From the IMG/VR virus record IMGVR_UViG_3300049595_003462: a DNA stretch of 20,000 nucleotides; one strand, given 5' to 3'. The DNA is from an uncultured virus (IMG/VR IMGVR_UViG_3300049595_003462). Its lineage: Duplodnaviria; Heunggongvirae; Uroviricota; Caudoviricetes. The notes below the pieces were generated by a model, which was not told where the DNA came from, searched no databases, and worked only from the letters and a program-made list of their open reading frames with translations. Made by a program: the position numbers and the translations under genes. Below are positions 1,415 to 17,665 of this stretch, in pieces (the stretch's first letter is position 1; every line of letters begins with the position of its first letter).

Positions 1415-1990
1415 ATGAAAGTTATATTTTTAGATCATGACGGTGTAATTTGTTTATTAACCGAATGGGGAAGTCGACATAAGAAACAAAAAAAATGGGG
1501 TGAACGGAATACATCCATCTCAATGAATGAAATACCACTTGAATATCGTTTTGATAATTTCAATCAAAAGGCGATTAACATCCTTAACGAAATTTTGGAA
1601 GAAACAGGAGCAGAAATTGTGGTTTCATCAGATTGGAAAAATTTTGCAACTCTTGAAGAGATGGGTAAATATTATGAATCCAAAGGGATTATTAAAAAAC
1701 CTATCGCATTTACATTAAATCTAGGTAATTGTACTTGGTATAATAAAGATGTTTGGGTTTGGAACCCAAAATGGGATTTGGAAATGAGTCGAGTTATTGA
1801 AATTAAACAATACCTACATGACCATCCTGAGATTACTCATTGGGTCTCAATTGATGATTTGAACATGGGTAAAAATGGGGAATCTTGGAAGGATTGGGGG
1901 TTGGATAACTTTGTCTTAACTCCAAATGGTAATGAAGGGATCAAACAATCGGGAATAAAAGAAAAAGTAATCAAATTTTTAAATGATTAA
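1415..1990 (+). CDS. HAD-superfamily phosphatase-like protein (resembles the HAD domain of Swiss-Army-knife RNA repair proteins)
   Basis: Motif I FLDHDGV, motif II VVSSDWK, motif IV WVSIDD. Confidence 0.8.
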   Translation: MKVIFLDHDGVICLLTEWGSRHKKQKKWGERNTSISMNEIPLEYRFDNFNQKAINILNEILEETGAEIVVSSDWKNFATLEEMGKYYESKGIIKKPIAFTLNLGNCTWYNKDVWVWNPKWDLEMSRVIEIKQYLHDHPEITHWVSIDDLNMGKNGESWKDWGLDNFVLTPNGNEGIKQSGIKEKVIKFLND

Positions 1991-6847: not shown

Positions 6848-6918
6848 AGGTCGGTACAGGATTTGAACCTGTGTAAGCGGTTTTGCAGACCGATGCCTAA
6901 CCACTCGGCCAACCGACC
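6848..6918 (-). tRNA. tRNA-Cys(GCA)
   Basis: Loop CTGCAAA, U73. Confidence 0.93.
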
Positions 6919-7023
6919 TTAATATTTTATCAATTCACCGATTACCACAATTACGGTGAGACCATCGGGTACTCGGACCCGTGTTTTCTTTTTACCCGTG
7001 GATTAAACTATTTGATAGGGTAG

Positions 7024-7098
7024 TGTCCCCGATGGGGCTCGAACCCATGACCCCTAAATTAAAAGTTTAGTGCTCTAAACCAACTGAGCTACGAAGAC
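7024..7098 (-). tRNA. tRNA-Lys(TTT)
   Basis: CTAAA-CTTTTAA-TTTAG. Confidence 0.94.
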
Positions 7099-7104
7099 AT
7101 TGTG

Positions 7105-7176
7105 TTGTCACGATAGGATTTGAACCTATGACCGCTTCCGTATCAGGGAAGAACTCTACCGCTGAGTTACGTGACA
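7105..7176 (-). tRNA. tRNA-Ile(GAT)
   Basis: CTTCC-CTGATAC-GGAAG. Confidence 0.94.
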
Positions 7177-7213
7177 ATAAAAAAAGGTTCTAAATCATCC
7201 CCACGCCATTTTG

Positions 7214-7770
7214 AGAGAACCTTTTAAGTTTTAGATTTGGCGATATAGTATCCCACACCGATATGTCTAAGATTTGTTAGACAATAGTAACCATCCACGG
7301 TGGGTCTGTACTTTCACACTCCGTCCATGTTTACTTATCTAATCGGTTTGTCATAGAGTTTTCAACATAGCGTTCAGTGCTATCCTCAGAACATCTTCAC
7401 CCTACCCCCAAAGTTACGTGGTGAGTCTCACTCGGAAGAAGAGTGTGTACCGTAAGATTGTTCAGTATTCTTACGACTTGTGGATTCTATTACGACTAAT
7501 TAAAGCCCCTTACCCCCTTAATCCATAATGGGGAACTCTTCTAATTTGAGATTCCAATGTACCTGACGGAATTTCACCCAATCAATTAATCTCGTTCATG
7601 AAAGATTATACAAGTTTCACTCTGTGTTACCTCCCCCATAGCCTTGAAGCCTTCAAGTCAGGGTCACACACCATAACGAACAAGTACTTTTCGTTAATCG
7701 TGGGGTCTTAAGTAAAGTATGACGTTTGATCGTCCTATGGTTGTTTCCATCCGCGGACTCACGGTTCTCT
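7214..7770 (-). ncRNA. candidate large ornate structured RNA (~560 nt)
   Basis: No credible ORF, GC above flanking genes, ends closed by AGAGAACC/GGTTCTCT, many internal hairpins; lies between tRNA-Ser and tRNA-Ile. Confidence 0.65.
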
Positions 7771-7775
7771 TTACT

Positions 7776-7865
7776 TGGCGGAGAGGGAGGGATTCGAACC
7801 CCCGTTAGAGTCTCCCCTAAAACGGTTTTCAAGACCGCCGCGTTCGACCGCTCTGCCACCTCTCC
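7776..7865 (-). tRNA. tRNA-Ser(TGA), CCA encoded
   Basis: GCGGT-CTTGAAA-ACCGT, long variable arm, GCCA end. Confidence 0.96.
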
Positions 7866-7889
7866 ATTTAATAGGTACAAACCTAATAA

Positions 7890-8285
7890 TTATTTTATTA
7901 AAATCCAAGCTTCTTTACAATATTTTTCATGTTTTCTTGCTTCGATTTCCATTGGATGCTTTTCATATCCATGTGTTTTTAACATTTTATAATACCTACT
8001 TACAATTGGTTGTAATGTGTGGGCATATTCATGTAATGTTGTTTCAATTACATCTTTAACATTCTTACAATTGTTTTTAAAGATATAAATAGTATTAGTA
8101 TCAGGATTATACTCACCAAAATTTTGAATTTCGGCGTTTTTACTTTGATTCTTAACTACAACAGTACAACATCCTTTTCTTTTGTTAATTCCAAATTTAA
8201 ATACACTATATCTTATTGTTTTATCAACAATTCTTCTAATTTCTCTGTGATTTAAATTATTTAAATTTGTATTTAGTCTGATCAT
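7890..8285 (-). CDS. putative HEXXH zinc metallopeptidase
   Basis: TTLHEYAH...HPMEIEAR; start moved to MIRLNT because a promoter (8305-8335) overlaps the longer N-terminus. Confidence 0.75.
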   Translation of the reverse strand: MIRLNTNLNNLNHREIRRIVDKTIRYSVFKFGINKRKGCCTVVVKNQSKNAEIQNFGEYNPDTNTIYIFKNNCKNVKDVIETTLHEYAHTLQPIVSRYYKMLKTHGYEKHPMEIEARKHEKYCKEAWILIK

Positions 8286-8791: not shown

Positions 8792-8840
8792 TCGAGTGTT
8801 TCGAATCACTCAGTCTCAGATTAATTACTCCTGAGATTTG

Positions 8841-8954
8841 TAATCAGGACAGGATTCGAACCTGTATTAGTTGTACACCTAACTGAATCAATTTCCTCCG
8901 AGTACATCCGAACCCTACTTTATCATCATGCATCTACCATTCTGCCACCTGACT
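8841..8954 (-). ncRNA. tRNA-Leu-like scaffold unit 1 (114 nt)
   Basis: AGTCAGG-TGGCAGAATGGTAGATGC...ACAGGTTCGAATCCTGTCCTGATTA. Confidence 0.8.
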
Positions 8955-9135
8955 ATTTCTTAAATGCTAATTTTATCTTTTCCCATATACTCATACTCTT
9001 ATAATCATAGTAAAAGTTTATTGCTCTTGGAATACCACTCGACCAATGATGACATTCTGTTGATAATTTTTCGTAATGTTCTAAATCTGATTCACGTAAA
9101 TCTTCATTAGTTGCTTGATAACATTTATTTTCCAT
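8953..9135 (-). CDS. hypothetical protein
   Basis: 60 aa; TAG stop overlaps the 5' end of unit 1. Confidence 0.65.
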   Translation of the reverse strand: MENKCYQATNEDLRESDLEHYEKLSTECHHWSSGIPRAINFYYDYKSMSIWEKIKLAFKK

Positions 9136-9208
9136 AATTTTATTTTTATTTAAAGTTTATCGTTCTAAATCCCGCCCTTCTGGTAGCTGCAAAACGGTAG
9201 AAGTAATA

Positions 9209-9457
9209 TCATTTATATCTTTTAAATCTATTATCACTTAAATCATCCACACCTTCACCAATTTTAATCCTATCTAATTTAGTTCTCTGTTCAAGTTCTA
9301 ATATTTTATTTTTCAATTCGTCTATAACCTTATTATATCCTTTTGTTCCTATTTCACCTTTAGATAAGTGTTTAGTTTTAGCTAAAATTGTTTCCAACTC
9401 TGTTCTTAACTTATCTATTTCTTTTTGTCTATTAATGATACTACTTGAACTTTTCAT
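9209..9457 (-). CDS. hypothetical coiled-coil protein
   Basis: 82 aa, K/E-rich, same strand as neighbours. Confidence 0.6.
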   Translation of the reverse strand: MKSSSSIINRQKEIDKLRTELETILAKTKHLSKGEIGTKGYNKVIDELKNKILELEQRTKLDRIKIGEGVDDLSDNRFKRYK

Positions 9458-9546
9458 CTTCGTAAGTTATTTTTTTGTTTTTAAATTAAATTATTATTTA
9501 GATACTTTATAAACTTCCCTACTGGGATTTGAACTCAACACTTTTG

Positions 9547-9688
9547 TAGTCAGGACAGGATTCGAACCTGTAACTCCTATTGCGTCTACTCATATCACTT
9601 TAGGATAGACTAATATGACCCTGCGGAGTAGAATCGTCTATCTTTCGATACCTATATTAGCGAGTCTAACCAATTCCGCCACCTGACT
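9547..9688 (-). ncRNA. tRNA-Leu-like scaffold unit 2 (142 nt)
   Basis: Conserved ends; insert closed by CTAATAT/ATATTAG with TATC-GAAA-GATA hairpin. Confidence 0.8.
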
Positions 9689-9818
9689 AAATTTGCTCGT
9701 CTATTCCGAGCTGTCAACGATCCTTGAAGCTTACCTACGCACTGTGAGGTAGACCGTGTGTTCGTTCGCATTGCCTAATCATTGAGCGCTTTTACATTTC
9801 GGCTGCCGTGCGTGTCAG

Positions 9819-9908
9819 TAGTCAGGACAGGATTCGAACCTGTAAATTTCCAATCGCAACGATACCATATCCTATCTTGGAGTCGAACCAACTTTAAACC
9901 ACCTGACT
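9819..9908 (-). ncRNA. tRNA-like scaffold unit 3 (90 nt, divergent D-arm)
   Basis: AGTCAGGTGG...ACAGGTTCGAATCCTGTCCTGACTA. Confidence 0.75.
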
Positions 9909-9915
9909 ATTTGTT

Positions 9916-10263
9916 TTATCTTTGATTTGTTTTTTCTAAATAATCTTTATACGATTTATATTTTTCCCTATGTTCGACAATTAACTTAATGTAGTCCTCC
10001 AACGGTTTTATCACACCTCTTTCTGTGATATACATTATTTCACCACCCATTCCTGGTTTTGCGTATAACTTATCTGGATTTTCATTACAGATTGGATAAC
10101 GTAAATCATATGAGTAACCATGGTTATTAACATTCGAGATGGGCATATCACATAACGCGGCAAATTTTTTCTTACTTGTGGTTACACATATCACTTCCAA
10201 CTCCATACCTCTACGGTACATTGTTATAGAATAGGTCTTATATTTTTTACTTAATTTTTCCAT
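9916..10263 (-). CDS. hypothetical protein
   Basis: 115 aa with own promoter; stop 7 nt before unit 3. Confidence 0.75.
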   Translation of the reverse strand: MEKLSKKYKTYSITMYRRGMELEVICVTTSKKKFAALCDMPISNVNNHGYSYDLRYPICNENPDKLYAKPGMGGEIMYITERGVIKPLEDYIKLIVEHREKYKSYKDYLEKTNQR

Positions 10264-10283
10264 CTTTTTTTATTATTGGAATA

Positions 10284-10315
10284 CAAAGATATGTATAATA
10301 TTTTAATCCACCAAA
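10284..10315 (-). promoter_or_regulatory. Bacteroidota-type promoter, repeat copy A
   Basis: TTTG-N20-TATCTTTG; near-identical to 13072-13103 and 13694-13725. Confidence 0.75.
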
Positions 10316-10321
10316 TCTTTT

Positions 10322-10543
10322 TTAAAAATATTTCCTACTTACCCATTCATCAGTACCAAGTTTTGGAGCCTCACCATTATTAAGTGTTAAATACATAAAA
10401 CCATTATAATTGTTGGTTTCATGTAATACATACTCAATCATTGTTATTACACCCAATTTCTCCTCCATTATAATGTTTGGATTAGATAATAACTTATTAA
10501 CCTTTTCTTTCACTAAATCCACATTTATAGTCTTTCTTTTCAT
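10322..10543 (-). CDS. hypothetical phage protein
   Basis: 73 aa, IEYVLHETNNYNGFMYL motif; promoter at 10564-10594. Confidence 0.75.
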   Translation of the reverse strand: MKRKTINVDLVKEKVNKLLSNPNIIMEEKLGVITMIEYVLHETNNYNGFMYLTLNNGEAPKLGTDEWVSRKYF

Positions 10544-10563
10544 ATTGTCTTTTGATTAGGATA

Positions 10564-10594
10564 CAAAAATACAAAAAATATATTAAATAACAAA
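10564..10594 (-). promoter_or_regulatory. Bacteroidota-type promoter
   Basis: TTTG-N19-TATTTTTG. Confidence 0.55.
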
Positions 10595-10604
10595 AAAAAT
10601 TTTG

Positions 10605-10708
10605 CAGTCAGGACAGGATTCGAACCTGTATAGTGCCTTTCACTTGGTTATCTTATGTCGAAATAAGAACTGTTTTTGCAGTGCGATAGCCATTCCGCTC
10701 ACCTGACT
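10605..10708 (-). ncRNA. tRNA-like scaffold unit 4 (104 nt, G discriminator)
   Basis: Conserved ends; insert with three small hairpins. Confidence 0.8.
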
Positions 10709-10838
10709 ATTTAAAAAATTAACTTACTAATTATAACCTATTTACGCTTGAGTTATAATCCCAATTTCCATCGTGGTTATTCGTAACTATCCCACACCTT
10801 ATTACCTACTTTCTTATTCGGTTCCTCAGTTAATTTTG

Positions 10839-10908
10839 TAGTCAGGACAGGATTCGAACCTGTAACGGAAACTATCGCAACCCCCTTTACCAGTTAAGTT
10901 ACCTGACT
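10839..10908 (-). ncRNA. tRNA-like scaffold unit 5 (70 nt, minimal)
   Basis: Conserved acceptor and T-arm; no canonical anticodon arm. Confidence 0.75.
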
Positions 10909-10966
10909 TCCATTCTAATGAGAGCATCTCACCTCAAAGGCTGTTCATAAACTAGCTTAATTAGTG

Positions 10967-11108
10967 TAGTCAGGACAGGATACAACCCTGTATAACACAT
11001 AATAGTTGGTGTGTGTTATTTAATCCATTAGACAAGGTAATTAATCCACTAACCAACATTGATAATCCCTCTCTTCTAACTTCTGCGTCTATATTCCGCC
11101 ACCTGACT
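10967..11108 (-). ncRNA. tRNA-like scaffold unit 6 (142 nt, degenerate T-loop)
   Basis: AGTCAGGTGGCGGAAT...ACAGGGTTGTATCCTGTCCTGACTA; ATAACACA/TGTGTTAT hairpin. Confidence 0.75.
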
Positions 11109-11114
11109 AAATAA

Positions 11115-11345
11115 CTATTCAATATAATACATTGAGTTTTCATTTGAGTAACAACCACCATTCCGGCTATCAAACCATTCACCATTATCAATCTGAAGAA
11201 TTTTAAATTTATCACCTGTATCAGGATCAAATTTATAATCAACTCCAATTATAGATGTTTTACGGAAGTTTTGTTGTGCCATTGATGTATAACCATCAAC
11301 ATGTACGTAATCACCAACATCTTTATTTTCAAGTATTTCTTTCAT
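11115..11345 (-). CDS. hypothetical protein
   Basis: 76 aa, ATGA-coupled to upstream ORF; stop 6 nt before unit 6. Confidence 0.7.
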   Translation of the reverse strand: MKEILENKDVGDYVHVDGYTSMAQQNFRKTSIIGVDYKFDPDTGDKFKILQIDNGEWFDSRNGGCYSNENSMYYIE

Positions 11346-11599
11346 ATTTTTTTATTTTTTTCAAACCATTCATCTAATGTAAAAATATATTGATCAATAT
11401 TTTCTAATAACTCTATCTTATGTTCATAAGCCGGATCCAACATCCATTCATATACACATTCAATTAGAGAATTAAGTAACATTGGATATTCAATCACATC
11501 AAATATAAATTTCTCTTTTGATTCATATTCAAAAGGAATATTATGTTCCCAACATTCTGGTTCAGAACAATGAGTATAATCAAGCACTAATCTTTCCAT
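11342..11599 (-). CDS. hypothetical protein
   Basis: 85 aa, AT-rich leader after unit 7. Confidence 0.7.
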   Translation of the reverse strand: MERLVLDYTHCSEPECWEHNIPFEYESKEKFIFDVIEYPMLLNSLIECVYEWMLDPAYEHKIELLENIDQYIFTLDEWFEKNKKI

Positions 11600-11616
11600 A
11601 ATTTTTATTTATTTTG

Positions 11617-11721
11617 TAGTCAGGACAGGAATCGAACCTGTATAATGTAGTATATTACCTTACTGAGAATCTACATTTTATCTCTAATGGTTTAGCGTCT
11701 AACCAATTCCGCCACCTGACT
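11617..11721 (-). ncRNA. tRNA-Leu-like scaffold unit 7 (105 nt)
   Basis: GGCGGAATTGGTTAGACGC D-arm; insert with AATGTAG/CTACATT helix. Confidence 0.8.
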
Positions 11722-11910
11722 ATGTCCCAAACTTCACTTAATGCGTCCATTAAGGATAGGTTTGGTAATCCACCATAACTTATGCCTTGGGCTATTCGTT
11801 TACGTGGAGAAATCACCACTGAAAATAGTGCTGATCTTACGGGAAGCATCGTGGTAGTTTTGTCGTCTTTCCGATCCGTCACCACGTTTCTAGTCTTAGT
11901 GTGGTTAACT

Positions 11911-12023
11911 TGGTAGTCAGGACAGGATTCGAACCTGTACGAGTGTTACTCTGTGTATCTGTTACCAGACGGTCAAGGGTTACGAACCCACACTTAGCGT
12001 CTAACCAATTCCGCCACCCGACT
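11911..12023 (-). ncRNA. tRNA-Leu-like scaffold unit 8 (CCA encoded)
   Basis: Ends CCTGACTACCA; anticodon position holds a branched domain (GGGTT/AACCC and TCTG-GTAA-CAGA hairpins) followed by GAGT/ACTC variable arm. Confidence 0.82.
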
Positions 12024-12072
12024 ATTTTTATTTGATTTTTGAGAATATATTTTCTAAATATCCAACTTCATT

Positions 12073-12411
12073 CTATCCAATCTTTTCTATTTTAATCACA
12101 CCTTTCATAAAATAACCCATATTTTCAACCCACCTATCCAAAGTGTCAAAACTATTTAGTTCGTCCCAAGTAAGGAAATTAGTGTCTACATTAGGAAAAT
12201 TAATAAATGGGTTATCTTCGTAATCAACGGTTCTAAGATTATATTGATAGTAAACACCAACAGGTCGACCCACTTTAATGGAATTTTTATCCATAAAATT
12301 ACATTCAACGATTTGTTCAATCTTAGCCGGAAAAAATATCCCCGGAAATTCTTTAGTTGATACGATTATGACATCGTCAAAATTTAATTTTGTATGATAA
12401 TTTGGTAACAT
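12073..12411 (-). CDS. hypothetical protein
   Basis: 112 aa between units 9 and 8. Confidence 0.7.
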   Translation of the reverse strand: MLPNYHTKLNFDDVIIVSTKEFPGIFFPAKIEQIVECNFMDKNSIKVGRPVGVYYQYNLRTVDYEDNPFINFPNVDTNFLTWDELNSFDTLDRWVENMGYFMKGVIKIEKIG

Positions 12412-12438
12412 ATTTGTTTATTTAAATTATTAATTTTG

Positions 12439-12524
12439 TAGTCAGGACAGGATTCGAACCTGTATACTTTCATCCTATTGATATTATCTCCTATTTGACC
12501 GTCATCCATTTGCGCCACCTGACC
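12439..12524 (-). ncRNA. tRNA-like scaffold unit 9 (86 nt)
   Basis: Identical to unit 11 except the first base. Confidence 0.8.
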
Positions 12525-12676
12525 ATAAGAAATATGAAGGCATATCGGTCGTTCCCAAGTTTTTGATGGTTAACCCCTGCCATACTCTTTGGACCGCTAA
12601 ATCCATACCATTTGAGATGTTAACCCTTGATTGATTGGACTATTACGTAATTTATCCTTTCAATTTCATATTTTTG

Positions 12677-12785
12677 TAGTCAGGACAGGATTCGAACCTG
12701 TAAGTAGTTTTCAAATTAGGCATTCATCTCTTTTACACAAAGCTTGGAGACGGCTTACTTTGGTGACCAATTCCGCCACCTGACT
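12677..12785 (-). ncRNA. tRNA-like scaffold unit 10 (109 nt)
   Basis: Conserved ends, unique insert. Confidence 0.8.
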
Positions 12786-12791
12786 ATTTTA

Positions 12792-12956
12792 TTACCTTTG
12801 TCCTTTTATATCTTTAATGGTGTTATCTACCATCCAATTTGCAATTTTTTCTCTTCCTTTTTGGTTTGGGACTAATTCAGGACTATCGATCCCAAATTGA
12901 ATTGCTGTTTCAACTAATTTTTTTAGTTCTTCTGTTGTAATATTAATCGTTTCCAT
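12792..12956 (-). CDS. small hypothetical protein (54 aa), not in the ORF track
   Basis: METINITTEELKKLVETAIQFGIDSPELVPNQKGREKIANWMVDNTIKDIKGQR*; fills the gap between units 11 and 10. Confidence 0.7.
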   Translation of the reverse strand: METINITTEELKKLVETAIQFGIDSPELVPNQKGREKIANWMVDNTIKDIKGQR

Positions 12957-12971
12957 AACATTTAATTTTAG

Positions 12972-13057
12972 TAGTCAGGACAGGATTCGAACCTGTATAC
13001 TTTCATCCTATTGATATTATCTCCTATTTGACCGTCATCCATTTGCGCCACCTGACT
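12972..13057 (-). ncRNA. tRNA-like scaffold unit 11 (86 nt, duplicate of unit 9)
   Basis: 85-nt exact direct repeat with 12439-12523. Confidence 0.8.
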
Positions 13058-13071
13058 ATTTTATAACAATA

Positions 13072-13103
13072 CAAAGATATGTATAATATTTTAATCCGCC
13101 AAA
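13072..13103 (-). promoter_or_regulatory. Bacteroidota-type promoter, repeat copy B
   Basis: TTTG-N20-TATCTTTG directly upstream of unit 11. Confidence 0.75.
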
Positions 13104-13114
13104 TTTTTTTTATG

Positions 13115-13204
13115 GTTAATAATTAACTTAGTTGTGGTTCCTCGCCACTATTAGTTAGCTTAATTCTTGCACTAAGTTAATTATTAACATTCCGCAACCT
13201 GACT
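13115..13204 (-). pseudogene. truncated scaffold unit 12 (5' half only) fused to a long hairpin
   Basis: AGTCAGGTTGCGGAATG followed by an 18-bp perfect inverted repeat (13115-32/13171-88); no T-arm or 3' acceptor strand. Confidence 0.6.
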
Positions 13205-13269
13205 AAATTCTAATTCTATGACATTCCCACTTTCTTCAGGTGCTATGAATTAGTAACAATCTGCCTTTG

Positions 13270-13360
13270 TAGCCAGGACAGGATTCGAACCTGTAAATTG
13301 AGGGCGCGACCCTCTTGACATTATCCCGAGGACTGCGTCTACCAATTTCGCCACCTGACT
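13270..13360 (-). ncRNA. tRNA-Leu-like scaffold unit 13 (91 nt)
   Basis: GGCGAAATTGGTAGACGC D-arm, GAGGG/CCCTC variable arm, no canonical 7-nt anticodon loop. Confidence 0.8.
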
Positions 13361-13365
13361 ATATT

Positions 13366-13674
13366 TTATTCTTCAAACTCTTTTTTAAGTTTTAAATAAC
13401 TTTCGTAACGTCTTTCTTTTTCCCATTTATTATGTAGTTCATTATTAGATAGACGTTTTTGATATTGTTCATCAGTTTCTTCAACCATTCTAGTGATTTC
13501 TCCGACATAGAGCCCGCGTCCGTCATCATCGTCCTCTTCCCATGATGACCTGATTACATCATCATCTTCTAATTGTAAATGCTTAATATCCGACCATTTG
13601 ATAAGGCGATTTTCACCAAGCCAAAACAATTGCGTTTCTCTTTTGATTTTATTTAATGATTTTTTATCTTCCAT
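13366..13674 (-). CDS. hypothetical acidic protein
   Basis: 102 aa with own promoter; stop 5 nt before unit 13. Confidence 0.75.
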   Translation of the reverse strand: MEDKKSLNKIKRETQLFWLGENRLIKWSDIKHLQLEDDDVIRSSWEEDDDDGRGLYVGEITRMVEETDEQYQKRLSNNELHNKWEKERRYESYLKLKKEFEE

Positions 13675-13693
13675 GACTATTTTTTTAACAATA

Positions 13694-13725
13694 CAAAGAT
13701 ATGTTTAATATTTTAATTCACCAAA
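13694..13725 (-). promoter_or_regulatory. Bacteroidota-type promoter, repeat copy C
   Basis: TTTG-N20-TATCTTTG. Confidence 0.75.
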
Positions 13726-13734
13726 TCTTTTTTG

Positions 13735-13865
13735 TAATCAGGACAGGATTCGAACCTATAACCGTGCGTAATCTTCTATTTCAACTCATTGTACTTTTGA
13801 GTCCGTCACAGCTTTGTTTGTGGTTAGCTTTACCACATAGCGTCTACCAATTCCGCCACCTGACC
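13735..13865 (-). ncRNA. tRNA-Leu-like scaffold unit 14 (131 nt)
   Basis: GGTCAGGTGGCGGAATTGGTAGACGC...ATAGGTTCGAATCCTGTCCTGATTA; TGTGGT/ACCACA and ACTCA/TGAGT hairpins. Confidence 0.8.
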
Positions 13866-13941
13866 ATTTTACCCCACTTCACCAGGTTAACGGACTGGCT
13901 GCCATGTGGGAGTGGGGGTTTCCCGTTATTTCGGGACTCCG

Positions 13942-16984: not shown

Positions 16985-17665
16985 TTATATCGTCTTTTTT
17001 ATAGTTCTACCTAATTCCCATTCAGGATACAAATATAAGTCAATTTTTTTAATTTTTTTAGTTTCTTTTCCATTTGTTATCCAACAAGTACCAAATTGTG
17101 AATTTTTTTCACCTTTTTGATGTATTGCATTTTTTTCACCAATTATTTTTTTTGTTTCATCTTTGTGGGTTTTTCCTCTAAAAGTACCACCAAAATCAAA
17201 ACCAGAATCAATCTTACTTTGTTTTATTTTTTCAAGTTGTATTTTTCTTTTTTCAGGTGTCACCGTTTTATAATAATTTTTGAAAATCACACTTAAAAAA
17301 TTATCACCATATCTTTCTTGTAATATTTTATCAGTTGTTTTTCTACCTTTTTTAACACCTTCAGGACTTATAAAACCTCCACCCCCACCATAAACTAAAT
17401 TTATACATAATTTATCTTCTAATAATGTTTGGTTTACAATTTCTTTCTCTCTTTTTTTTAATAAATCTCTATTTGGTAACATTTCTAAAATCTCAATTTT
17501 AAAATTTTCTTTACCATATTTTTTTAAACTTCTTGTTATTCTTTCACCACTACCCATATAACCGTCTTCTAAATTACTGGTTGAGTGCATCCCAATGTAA
17601 AATTTTCCATTTATAATATTTGTTGTCTTATAAATGTAATGATATTTGTGTTGTTTTCTTGGCAT
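16985..17665 (-). CDS. free-standing GIY-YIG (Seg-like) homing endonuclease with NUMOD3-like DNA-binding motif
   Basis: YIYKTTN..NGKFYIG.H.....DGYMGSG, E in LKKREKEI, FRGKTHKDETKKII, GEKNSQFGTCWITNG. Confidence 0.9.
   Translation of the reverse strand: MPRKQHKYHYIYKTTNIINGKFYIGMHSTSNLEDGYMGSGERITRSLKKYGKENFKIEILEMLPNRDLLKKREKEIVNQTLLEDKLCINLVYGGGGGFISPEGVKKGRKTTDKILQERYGDNFLSVIFKNYYKTVTPEKRKIQLEKIKQSKIDSGFDFGGTFRGKTHKDETKKIIGEKNAIHQKGEKNSQFGTCWITNGKETKKIKKIDLYLYPEWELGRTIKKTI

What the first reader, a model, noticed from the sequence alone, without database searches (positions are those of the whole stretch)
7180..7772. ~560-nt ornate ncRNA candidate with a switch-like 3' end
Seen: a non-coding block between tRNA-Ser and tRNA-Ile, closed by an 8-bp helix (7763-70 with 7214-21), with many hairpins (e.g. 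7264-83, 7367-83, 7429-45, 7451-75, 7674-96, 7721-34, 7737-50). The 3' strand of the closing helix can alternatively pair with 7182-91 to form a terminator-like stem before a U run. Established: GOLLD and ROOL are large structured RNAs found next to phage tRNA genes. I cannot assign this one to either by eye, so it may be a new class.
Basis: partly seen in the sequence, partly recalled or inferred. Interest (0 to 1): 0.75.

Follow-up and report, generated by a model that had tools for sequence, protein, structure and literature searches.

The report
New knotted RNA among phage tRNAs
The flagged spacer is a real gene for a large, heavily knotted non-coding RNA of an uncatalogued family that uncultured lake jumbo phages carry inside their tRNA gene clusters, and its job is still unknown.

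Summary
The block is non-coding and holds a real structured RNA. It must be read on the minus strand, like all 25 tRNAs of the window. It has two parts: a 66-nt leader (7710-7775) and a 533-nt core (7177-7709).

I collected 88 distinct full-length relatives from uncultured viral and lake or freshwater metagenome contigs. None turned up in 185,579 prokaryote species genomes. A model of 102 base pairs in 21 helices, four of them pseudoknots, was derived on 62 sequences. It held on 26 sequences found later with a different motif: 93.3% of cells paired against 35-47% in slid controls. Two further pseudoknots also covary.

No Rfam 15 family matches. GOLLD proper lies elsewhere in 11 of 27 records that carry this RNA, so this is a separate class.

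Four of the five hairpins listed inside the core are.

Most likely the RNA is co-transcribed with the tRNAs, cut out by tRNA-end processing, and acts in trans as a folded particle, as GOLLD and ROOL are thought to. Its function is unknown.

This scan noted the same family earlier on another genome (e1-6058500). I found no published description.

The parts
7177..7709 (-). Core of the RNA (533 nt; RNA position p = window 7710-p). It starts at the conserved AAGACCCCAC and ends with helix P and a U run directly before tRNA-Ile.
   Evidence: It matches 88 distinct full-length relatives. The 102-pair model is supported.
7710..7775 (-). 66-nt leader: a 7-bp closing stem around three small hairpins, cloverleaf-like but not a tRNA. 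It is an optional 5' appendage of the family.
   Evidence: 17 distinct copies were found; 16 are followed within 0-2 nt by the core and 1 (L007) by tRNA-Ile. The outer stem covaries. The leader's signature word is present upstream of 20 of 62 cores. No Rfam match.
7776..7865 (-). tRNA-Ser(UGA), directly upstream of the leader.
7104..7176 (-). tRNA-Ile(GAU). It starts 0 nt after the RNA's last base, so RNase P cleavage here would make the RNA's 3' end (inferred).
   Evidence: In 23 of 62 relatives a same-strand tRNA starts within 10 nt of the 3' end.
7624..7696 (-). 5' domain: hairpin A (RNA 14-19/31-36); helix D (41-45/82-86) enclosing hairpin E (48-52/63-68). The E loop pairs with 79-81 (pseudoknot S). 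The A loop (25-28) pairs with 172-175 (pseudoknot B).
7539..7623 (-). Optional three-way-junction domain V (RNA 87-171; helices 98-102/148-152, 105-108/117-120, 125-129/143-147). About 18-19 of 62 relatives have it. Some others carry an unrelated insert at the same site.
7429..7538 (-). Central domain: F (176-180/193-197) with its loop in pseudoknot G (185-189/225-229); hairpin H (203-206/213-216, loop UUAAUU in this copy, its first four bases UUAA conserved or nearly so); hairpin I (233-241/253-261) with its loop in pseudoknot J (247-251/317-321); hairpin K (265-269/277-281).
7384..7421 (-). Most conserved, mostly unpaired stretch (RNA 289-326), holding the G-rich motif GGGGGUAGGGUGAAG. Part of it pairs in pseudoknot J.
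   Evidence: In A1 its invariance is partly forced by the search patterns. In the independently found set A2 it varies at several positions.
7316..7380 (-). Variable domain closed by helix L (330-334/390-394), with inner helix M (354-356/369-371). In short forms it is replaced by a small loop.
7179..7304 (-). 3' domain: N (406-412/450-457) enclosing hairpin O (428-433/440-445); terminal stem P (485-491/522-528) and Q (494-497/508-511). The Q loop pairs with 468-472 (pseudoknot R) and the O loop with 514-517 (pseudoknot T). Three unpaired U's follow.

Best explanation
**What it is.** Window 7177-7709 (minus strand), with a 66-nt leader at 7710-7775, is a gene for a large, compact, multiply pseudoknotted non-coding RNA. 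Its family is in no catalogue I could search. The family lives in the tRNA arrays of uncultured freshwater jumbo phages.

**Shown:**
- The family exists, with a strand-specific, covariation-supported fold of at least 21 helices including six pseudoknots.
- Optional domains sit at two fixed sites.
- The nearest tRNA lies on the same strand in every locus that has one.
- Distribution is sporadic.
- It is separate from GOLLD.

**Inferred:**
- It is transcribed as part of the tRNA precursor.
- Its 3' end is made by RNase P cutting at the 5' end of the next tRNA. Its 5' end is made by 3'-end processing of the preceding tRNA (or of the leader).
- The released RNA acts in trans during infection as a folded particle, as proposed for GOLLD and ROOL. 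It may self-assemble or bind a partner from the translation or tRNA machinery.

The biochemical job is unknown.
For: - **Family size.** 62 distinct full-length copies came from two core motifs. A further 26 came from an unrelated 5' motif.
- **Structure, training set.** On A1, 102 pairs are 97.5% paired against 34-48% in slid controls. 72 pairs show changes on both sides against 19-25. 0 of 500 shuffles reach this.
- **Structure, hold-out set.** On A2, 93.3% against 35-47%; 72 pairs against 11-31; 0 of 500 shuffles.
- **Independent fold.** RNAalifold recovers nine nested helices on its own.
- **Extra pseudoknots.** S and T also covary.
- **Strand.** There are 495 G-U cells; pairing is 97.5% on this strand and 89.3% on the other.
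- **tRNA context.** 41 of 62 loci have a tRNA in the flank, and the nearest tRNAs are always on the same strand. The next tRNA starts within 10 nt in 23 of 62. The previous tRNA ends within 5 nt in 8 of 62. At least ten different downstream tRNA identities occur.
- **RNA libraries.** Contigs of relatives cover 7245-7776 in four metatranscriptome runs from four studies, at depths up to about 330. One 523-nt contig spans almost exactly one RNA. One contig ends at the tRNA-Ser/leader boundary.
- **Catalogues.** No Rfam match at E up to 10 here or up to 1 in ten relatives' loci.
- **GOLLD.** It is found above its cut-off elsewhere in 11 of 27 carrier records.
Against: - There is no direct evidence of transcription, ends or processing for this phage. 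The RNA-library data are assembled contigs of relatives, and DNA carry-over cannot be excluded.
- The single-sequence folding energy is not better than shuffles.
- Only 23 of 62 copies abut a downstream tRNA and 8 of 62 an upstream one, so tRNA-end processing cannot define both ends everywhere.
- The RNA is absent from 50 of 50 related phage records, six of them at least 90% complete. It is therefore dispensable.
- Nothing here tests oligomerisation or any partner.
- The structure was chosen on A1, so A1's controls are circular. Only A2 is independent, and its rows are related to one another.
Confidence: 0.55

Rival explanations
1. It is a cis-acting leader or switch. The 3' stem plus U run would be a conditional terminator. 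It would control read-through into the downstream tRNAs by pairing alternatively with an upstream segment.
For: - In this copy GGUUCUCU can pair either with AGAGAACC in the leader (8 bp) or with the 3' strand of helix P, which is followed by U's.
- Complementarity is 7 of 8 in 11 of the 20 relatives that have the leader word.
Against: - 42 of 62 relatives lack the upstream word.
- In 6 of the 20 that have it, helix P changed with compensation only inside P.
- P, Q, R and T form one fixed pseudoknotted domain with covariation.
- Four of the seven U's pair with an A run as part of P.
- Two clades have no U run.
- Downstream genes differ widely.
- The consensus scan calls no terminator here.
- 410-540 nt is far more than a switch needs.
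Confidence: 0.06
2. It is a ribozyme or a tRNA-directed RNA, for example an RNase P-like, self-processing or tRNA-binding activity that serves the phage's own tRNA array.
For: - It has a long, highly conserved and largely unpaired core (RNA 289-326, also 2-10, 69-78 and 414-425), as catalytic RNAs have.
- It is strictly tied to tRNA arrays.
- The window also encodes a HAD domain of RNA-repair proteins.
Against: - There is no match to RNase P, tmRNA, group I or II introns or any self-cleaving family at E up to 10.
- It is absent from six near-complete relatives that keep large tRNA arrays, so it is not needed for tRNA maturation.
- Part of the core's conservation is forced by my search patterns.
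Confidence: 0.12
3. It is the RNA part or a remnant of a mobile element (a guide-type RNA, an ORF-less intron or a homing cassette). Its conservation would reflect mobility rather than a role in infection.
For: - Relative to L007, the core is a clean 528-nt insertion between the leader and tRNA-Ile.
- The same Ser-Ile gap holds an unrelated ORF in four relatives.
- It sits between many different tRNA pairs and is sporadic.
- A GIY-YIG endonuclease gene lies in the same array.
Against: - No nuclease or transposase gene is consistently beside it; the flanks are tRNAs or differ from locus to locus.
- There is no intron or guide-RNA family match.
- No target duplication is visible beyond a T run.
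- Strong purifying selection on six pseudoknots points to a function of the folded RNA itself. Mobility and function are not exclusive.
Confidence: 0.08
4. It is not one RNA but decayed tRNA genes or chance hairpins in a spacer.
For: - The single-sequence folding z-scores are not significant.
- The window holds many odd tRNA-like paralogs.
Against: - No tRNA-like match lies inside 7177-7775 at E up to 10.
- 88 relatives keep long-range and pseudoknot pairings through compensatory changes.
Confidence: 0.01

Closest known systems
GOLLD RNA (Rfam RF02032)
   Same: - A large ornate non-coding RNA of phages, found in lakes and near tRNA islands.
- Sporadic distribution and unknown function (passages of PMC12286853).
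- It occurs in the same phage lineage: 11 of 27 carrier records.
   Different: - No match to the GOLLD model here or in relatives.
- Where both occur they are separate genes about 10 kb apart.
- This RNA is 408-540 nt, against more than 800 nt for many GOLLD RNAs.
- The helix plan is different.
ROOL RNA (Rfam RF03087)
   Same: - Similar size: the model has 574 positions.
- Multiple pseudoknots and a variable internal region.
- Encoded by phages and prophages, often near tRNAs, with no protein partner known.
   Different: - No match at E up to 10, nor in 27 carrier records. That search had no positive control.
- ROOL is known from cultured Bacillota, Fusobacteria and rumen samples (recalled).
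- This family appears only in uncultured freshwater viral contigs and in none of 185,579 species genomes.
tRNA-flanked RNAs released by tRNA-processing enzymes (for example MALAT1/mascRNA; also tRNA-linked RNAs in bacterial operons; recalled)
   Same: The RNA's ends coincide with tRNA ends (0-2 nt) in many copies. RNase P and 3'-end processing would therefore release it without signals of its own (inferred).
   Different: Processing is not shown here. The 66-nt leader is only cloverleaf-like and lacks T-loop features.
Terminator-type riboswitches and T-box leaders
   Same: A structured RNA that ends in a stem followed by U's, upstream of a gene.
   Different: There is no conserved alternative pairing. 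The stem is part of a fixed double pseudoknot. The downstream genes are tRNAs of many identities.

Membership tests
GOLLD (RF02032) | Match to the Rfam covariance model at or above its gathering score (150 bits). | tested here: not met
   No hit at gathering score. No hit at E up to 10 in 6900-8100. No hit over the RNA in ten relatives' loci at E up to 1. The model works on these phages: it scores 309-327 bits elsewhere in 11 of 27 records.
GOLLD (RF02032) | Phage-encoded, near tRNA islands. | tested here: met
GOLLD (RF02032) | Forms a 14-mer RNA-only nanocage. | not testable with these tools
   Needs cryo-EM or native sizing.
ROOL (RF03087) | Match to the Rfam covariance model (gathering score 99.1 bits). 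| tested here: not met
   0 of 27 records matched, which had no positive control.
ROOL (RF03087) | About 500-600 nt, multiple pseudoknots, next to tRNAs in phages. | tested here: met
   408-540 nt, six pseudoknots, tRNA arrays. This is a resemblance of kind, not homology.
tRNA, tmRNA, RNase P RNA, group I/II introns, OLE, raiA, HEARO | Match to the respective Rfam models. | tested here: not met
   Only a tmRNA_permuted fragment at E = 1 (15.7 bits against a gathering score of 47) and sX4 at E = 0.44 overlap the block. Both are chance-level.
Intrinsic terminator or riboswitch expression platform | Conserved mutually exclusive pairings (terminator against anti-terminator). | tested here: not met
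   the alternative partner is absent in 42 of 62. It is not compensated in 6 of the 20 that have it.
Structured non-coding RNA family (general) | Compensatory base changes that keep helices, on sequences not used to derive them. | tested here: met
   (hold-out alignment A2).

The most novel reading that the evidence does not exclude
This is a third, independent class of phage "ornate" RNA that builds an RNA-only higher-order assembly. Some of the six covarying "pseudoknots" would then really be contacts between copies, as turned out for one ROOL kissing loop. Alternatively, it is a tRNA-directed catalytic or decoy RNA, used by jumbo phages in the contest with host tRNA-cleaving defences.
Probability: 0.2. 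Interest if true: 0.9.

Novelty: new variant of a known kind. Interest (0 to 1): 0.7.

Why it matters
- **Rarity.** Large, intricately folded RNAs of unknown function are rare. Two of the known ones, GOLLD and ROOL, are phage RNAs near tRNA islands and were recently shown to form RNA-only nanocages.
- **What this adds.** Here is a further, unrelated class in the same genomic niche, often in the same phages as GOLLD. It has 88 distinct sequences and a fold validated by covariation.
- **What it enables.** It is a ready target for cryo-EM and chemical probing. It also gives a second handle on why phage tRNA arrays attract such RNAs. Its two tolerated insertion sites show where tags could be placed.

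Tried and rejected
- **Phage records.** BLAST of the block against 50,697 phage records gave no match.
- **Close relatives.** nhmmer of the block against 80 loci around a neighbouring gene of related phages matched only the leader in L007, a cut end in L004 and the identical twin contig. A family-profile search of all 218 loci found no extra diverged copies.
- **Similar-sized gaps.** The 572-575-nt Ser-Ile gaps in L026, L028, L034 and L036 looked promising. They are AT-rich and hold an ORF, so they are unrelated.
- **Recoding.** Reading the block as a recoded gene was rejected: all three stop codons occur in every frame.
- **5'-end pairing.** Pairing of the invariant 5' ACCCCAC with the 3' GUGGGG run is not kept in relatives. 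RNAalifold's alternative, ACCC 4-7 with GGGU 308-311, joins invariant columns and cannot be tested.
- **Conflicting helices.** Candidates 35-39/215-219 and 9-15/212-218 were dropped because they conflict with A and H.
Both were redone.
- **Cellular genomes.** The 11 pattern matches are chance; none matches the family profile at E up to 10. Viral loci L250 and L285 are chance matches too.
- **Uncovered flanks.** In the laid RNA runs the flanking protein genes have no cover. The contigs come from relatives, so this says nothing about expression of those genes.
- **Literature.** Five searches found no description of this RNA. The supplements of PMC10690425, which lists candidates of 29-151 nt, were not opened, so fragments of it might be there.

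Full report
**Setting.** The window is part of a 42,236-base uncultured virus record estimated at 10% complete, so it comes from a jumbo phage. A second viral contig is 100% identical over 6,027 bases.
- All 25 tRNA genes that ARAGORN finds lie on the minus strand.
- The flagged block 7177-7775 sits between tRNA-Ser(UGA) 7776-7865 and tRNA-Ile(GAU) 7104-7176.
- It has 8-17 stops in each of the six frames, of all three kinds. The ORF listing shows no ORF of 40 aa or more inside 7177-7652.
- Its G+C is 41%, against 26-32% in the neighbouring coding DNA.
- Rfam 15 gives only tRNAs at gathering score. At E up to 10 nothing credible lies inside the block.
- Folding energies are not better than shuffles on either strand: z = -0.43 (minus) and -1.32 (plus). 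The sequence alone therefore does not prove structure.

**Two parts.** A relative that shares the tRNA order His-Ser-Ile-Lys-Cys-Trp-Tyr-Gln-Arg-Met has only 71 nt between Ser and Ile (L007).
- Those 71 nt match the first 67 nt of our block read on the minus strand.
- The block is therefore a 66-nt leader (7710-7775) plus a 528-533-nt insert (7177-7709).
- The leader has a 7-bp outer stem that covaries and three small hairpins. 17 distinct copies were found: 16 are followed directly by the core and 1 by tRNA-Ile.

**The family.**
- An exact 15-mer from the core matched 29 viral loci, 6 of them true relatives including the twin.
- A second 15-mer matched 41 loci, 27 of them true.
- A longer degenerate form matched 60 metagenome loci and none in one genome for each of 185,579 prokaryote species.
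- Profile search and de-duplication gave 62 distinct full-length sequences of 408-540 nt, aligned as A1.
- Those patterns force conservation of the motif. I therefore scanned again with an unrelated pattern from the 5' end: 71 viral loci, 69 of them true. This gave 26 new distinct full-length sequences, aligned as A2. In A2 the G-rich core does vary.
- The same 5' pattern hit 11 cellular contigs. None matches the family profile, so they are chance.
- DNA runs that hold the stretch are freshwater or lake metagenomes.

**Structure.** A scan of A1 for stacked, covarying column pairs gave the helices. In RNA coordinates (p = 7710 - window position):

| Helix | Pairing | Note |
|---|---|---|
| A | 14-19/31-36 | hairpin |
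| D | 41-45/82-86 | encloses E |
| E | 48-52/63-68 | hairpin |
| V1-V3 | within 87-171 | optional three-way junction, about 18-19 of 62 |
| F | 176-180/193-197 | |
| H | 203-206/213-216 | |
| I | 233-241/253-261 | |
| K | 265-269/277-281 | |
| L | 330-334/390-394 | closes a variable domain that holds M |
| N | 406-412/450-457 | encloses O |
| O | 428-433/440-445 | hairpin |
| P | 485-491/522-528 | terminal stem |
| Q | 494-497/508-511 | |
| B (pseudoknot) | 25-28/172-175 | A loop |
| G (pseudoknot) | 185-189/225-229 | F loop |
| J (pseudoknot) | 247-251/317-321 | I loop |
| R (pseudoknot) | 468-472/502-506 | Q loop |

Support for this model:
- **A1 (training).** The 102 pairs are 97.5% paired against 34-48% when partners are slid. 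72 pairs have changes on both sides against 19-25. No shuffle out of 500 reaches this. This test is circular, because the model was picked on A1.
- **A2 (hold-out).** The same 102 pairs give 93.3% against 35-47%, 72 pairs against 11-31, and 0 of 500 shuffles.
- **RNAalifold.** Run on its own, it recovers A, E, H, I, K, N, O, P and part of Q.
- **Further pseudoknots.** S (60-62/79-81) pairs in 182 of 186 cells in A1 and 81 of 81 in A2. T (436-439/514-517) pairs in 90.7% and 93.5% of cells, and all four of its pairs covary.
- **Strand.** 495 G-U cells in A1 would be A-C on the other strand. Pairing is 97.5% on this strand against 89.3% on the other, and 93.3% against 86.3% in A2.

- Four of the five hairpins listed inside the core are helices O, K, I and A.
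- The fifth (7367-83) pairs in only 63.5% and 66.9% of cells and competes with L.
- The terminator-like stem is P. Its A run pairs with four of the seven U's that follow, which leaves three unpaired U's.
- The closing helix joins the leader word AGAGAACC to the 5' strand of P and Q. That word is upstream of only 20 of 62 cores. Among those 20, complementarity is 8/8 once (ours), 7/8 in 11, 6/8 in 2 and 5/8 in 6.
- In those six, P changed to GAUCCU/AGGAUC without any change in the leader. The switch is not a feature of the family.

**Context.**
- 41 of 62 loci have a tRNA in the flank held, and the nearest tRNAs are always on the RNA's strand.
- A tRNA starts within 10 nt of the 3' end in 23 of 62. 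A tRNA ends within 5 nt of the 5' end in 8 of 62.
- Neighbours differ: Leu, Ser, Asp and suppressor-type tRNAs upstream; Phe, Ile, Thr, Met, Glu, Val, Asp and others downstream.
- The RNA is absent from 50 of 50 related viral records, six of them at least 90% complete (the positive control is).
- It is therefore an accessory cassette that moves among tRNA arrays.
- GOLLD proper is present above its cut-off in 11 of 27 records that carry this RNA, about 10 kb away. ROOL is present in 0 of 27, but that search had no positive control.

**Expression.**
- Six metatranscriptome runs share some words with the stretch.
- In the four I laid, from four studies, contigs 85-99% like the window cover 7245-7776 at word depths up to about 330.
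- Several contigs skip 7535-7630, which is the optional domain V.
- One 523-nt contig spans RNA positions of about 8 to the 3' end. One contig ends at 7776, the tRNA-Ser/leader boundary.
- These are assembled contigs of relatives, so strand and ends are not proven and DNA carry-over is possible.

**Reading.** The best-supported account is a trans-acting, processed, folded RNA of a new class in the GOLLD/ROOL niche. Steps shown and steps inferred are separated under Best explanation. Its function is open. The rivals (cis switch, ribozyme or tRNA-directed RNA, mobile-element RNA, junk) are weighed in their own section.

**Prior knowledge.**
- Passages of PMC12286853 state that GOLLD and ROOL are phage and prophage RNAs, often near tRNA islands. 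They form nanocages and their function is unknown.
- Passages of PMC10690425 show that its IMG/VR candidates are 29-151 nt. Its supplements were not read.
- Five literature searches found no description of this RNA.
That context is one I also see.
- That note prompted my GOLLD check. The family, the fold and the RNA-library evidence were established here independently.

Noticed in passing
window 8814-13867 (minus strand): A paralogous family of tRNA-Ser-like genes. They share near-identical 3' ends (13 copies: T arm plus acceptor strand) and 5' ends (9 copies: acceptor strand plus D arm). Their middles vary, and the units are about 87-143 nt. ARAGORN calls only one of them (tRNA-Ser GGA, 13269-13360). 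Rfam gives weak tRNA hits at 9819-9908, 10839-10908, 11617-11721 and 11914-12023. The same 5' word follows the RNA in several relatives.
   Followed up: partly
window 1415-1990 (+) and 16985-17665 (-): A protein with the HAD domain of "Swiss Army Knife" RNA-repair proteins (E = 1.1e-19). A GIY-YIG endonuclease gene also sits inside the tRNA array. Both fit a phage that invests in tRNA upkeep and has mobile cassettes in its array.
   Followed up: no
L146 and L170, directly upstream of the RNA: ARAGORN calls a tRNA with anticodon CUA (listed as Pyl, that is, an amber suppressor type). It ends 0 nt before the RNA's first base. This hints at stop-codon recoding in those phages.
   Followed up: no
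L087:2324-2384: A near-threshold match to Rfam's freshwater-1 RNA (61.9 bits against a gathering score of 72) in the same tRNA array as the RNA.
   Followed up: no
L026, L028, L034, L036 (Ser-Ile gap); L019:9012-9190: The same Ser(UGA)-Ile(GAU) junction holds an AT-rich insert of about 575 nt with an ORF in four relatives. In L019 it holds a G+C-rich 179-nt spacer. This junction is an insertion hotspot.
   Followed up: partly
L087, L100, L104, L105, L121 upstream of the RNA; L189, L154, L178, L282, L257, L274 at RNA position ~87: A different conserved leader of about 100 nt replaces the 66-nt leader in one clade. An unrelated insert of about 75 nt occupies the site of optional domain V in another.
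   Followed up: no
L268, L277: Two strongly diverged family members (about 107 bits with the A1 profile against 320-490 for the others; 178-189 bits with the 88-sequence profile). They show that the family reaches further than the motif scans can.
   Followed up: partly
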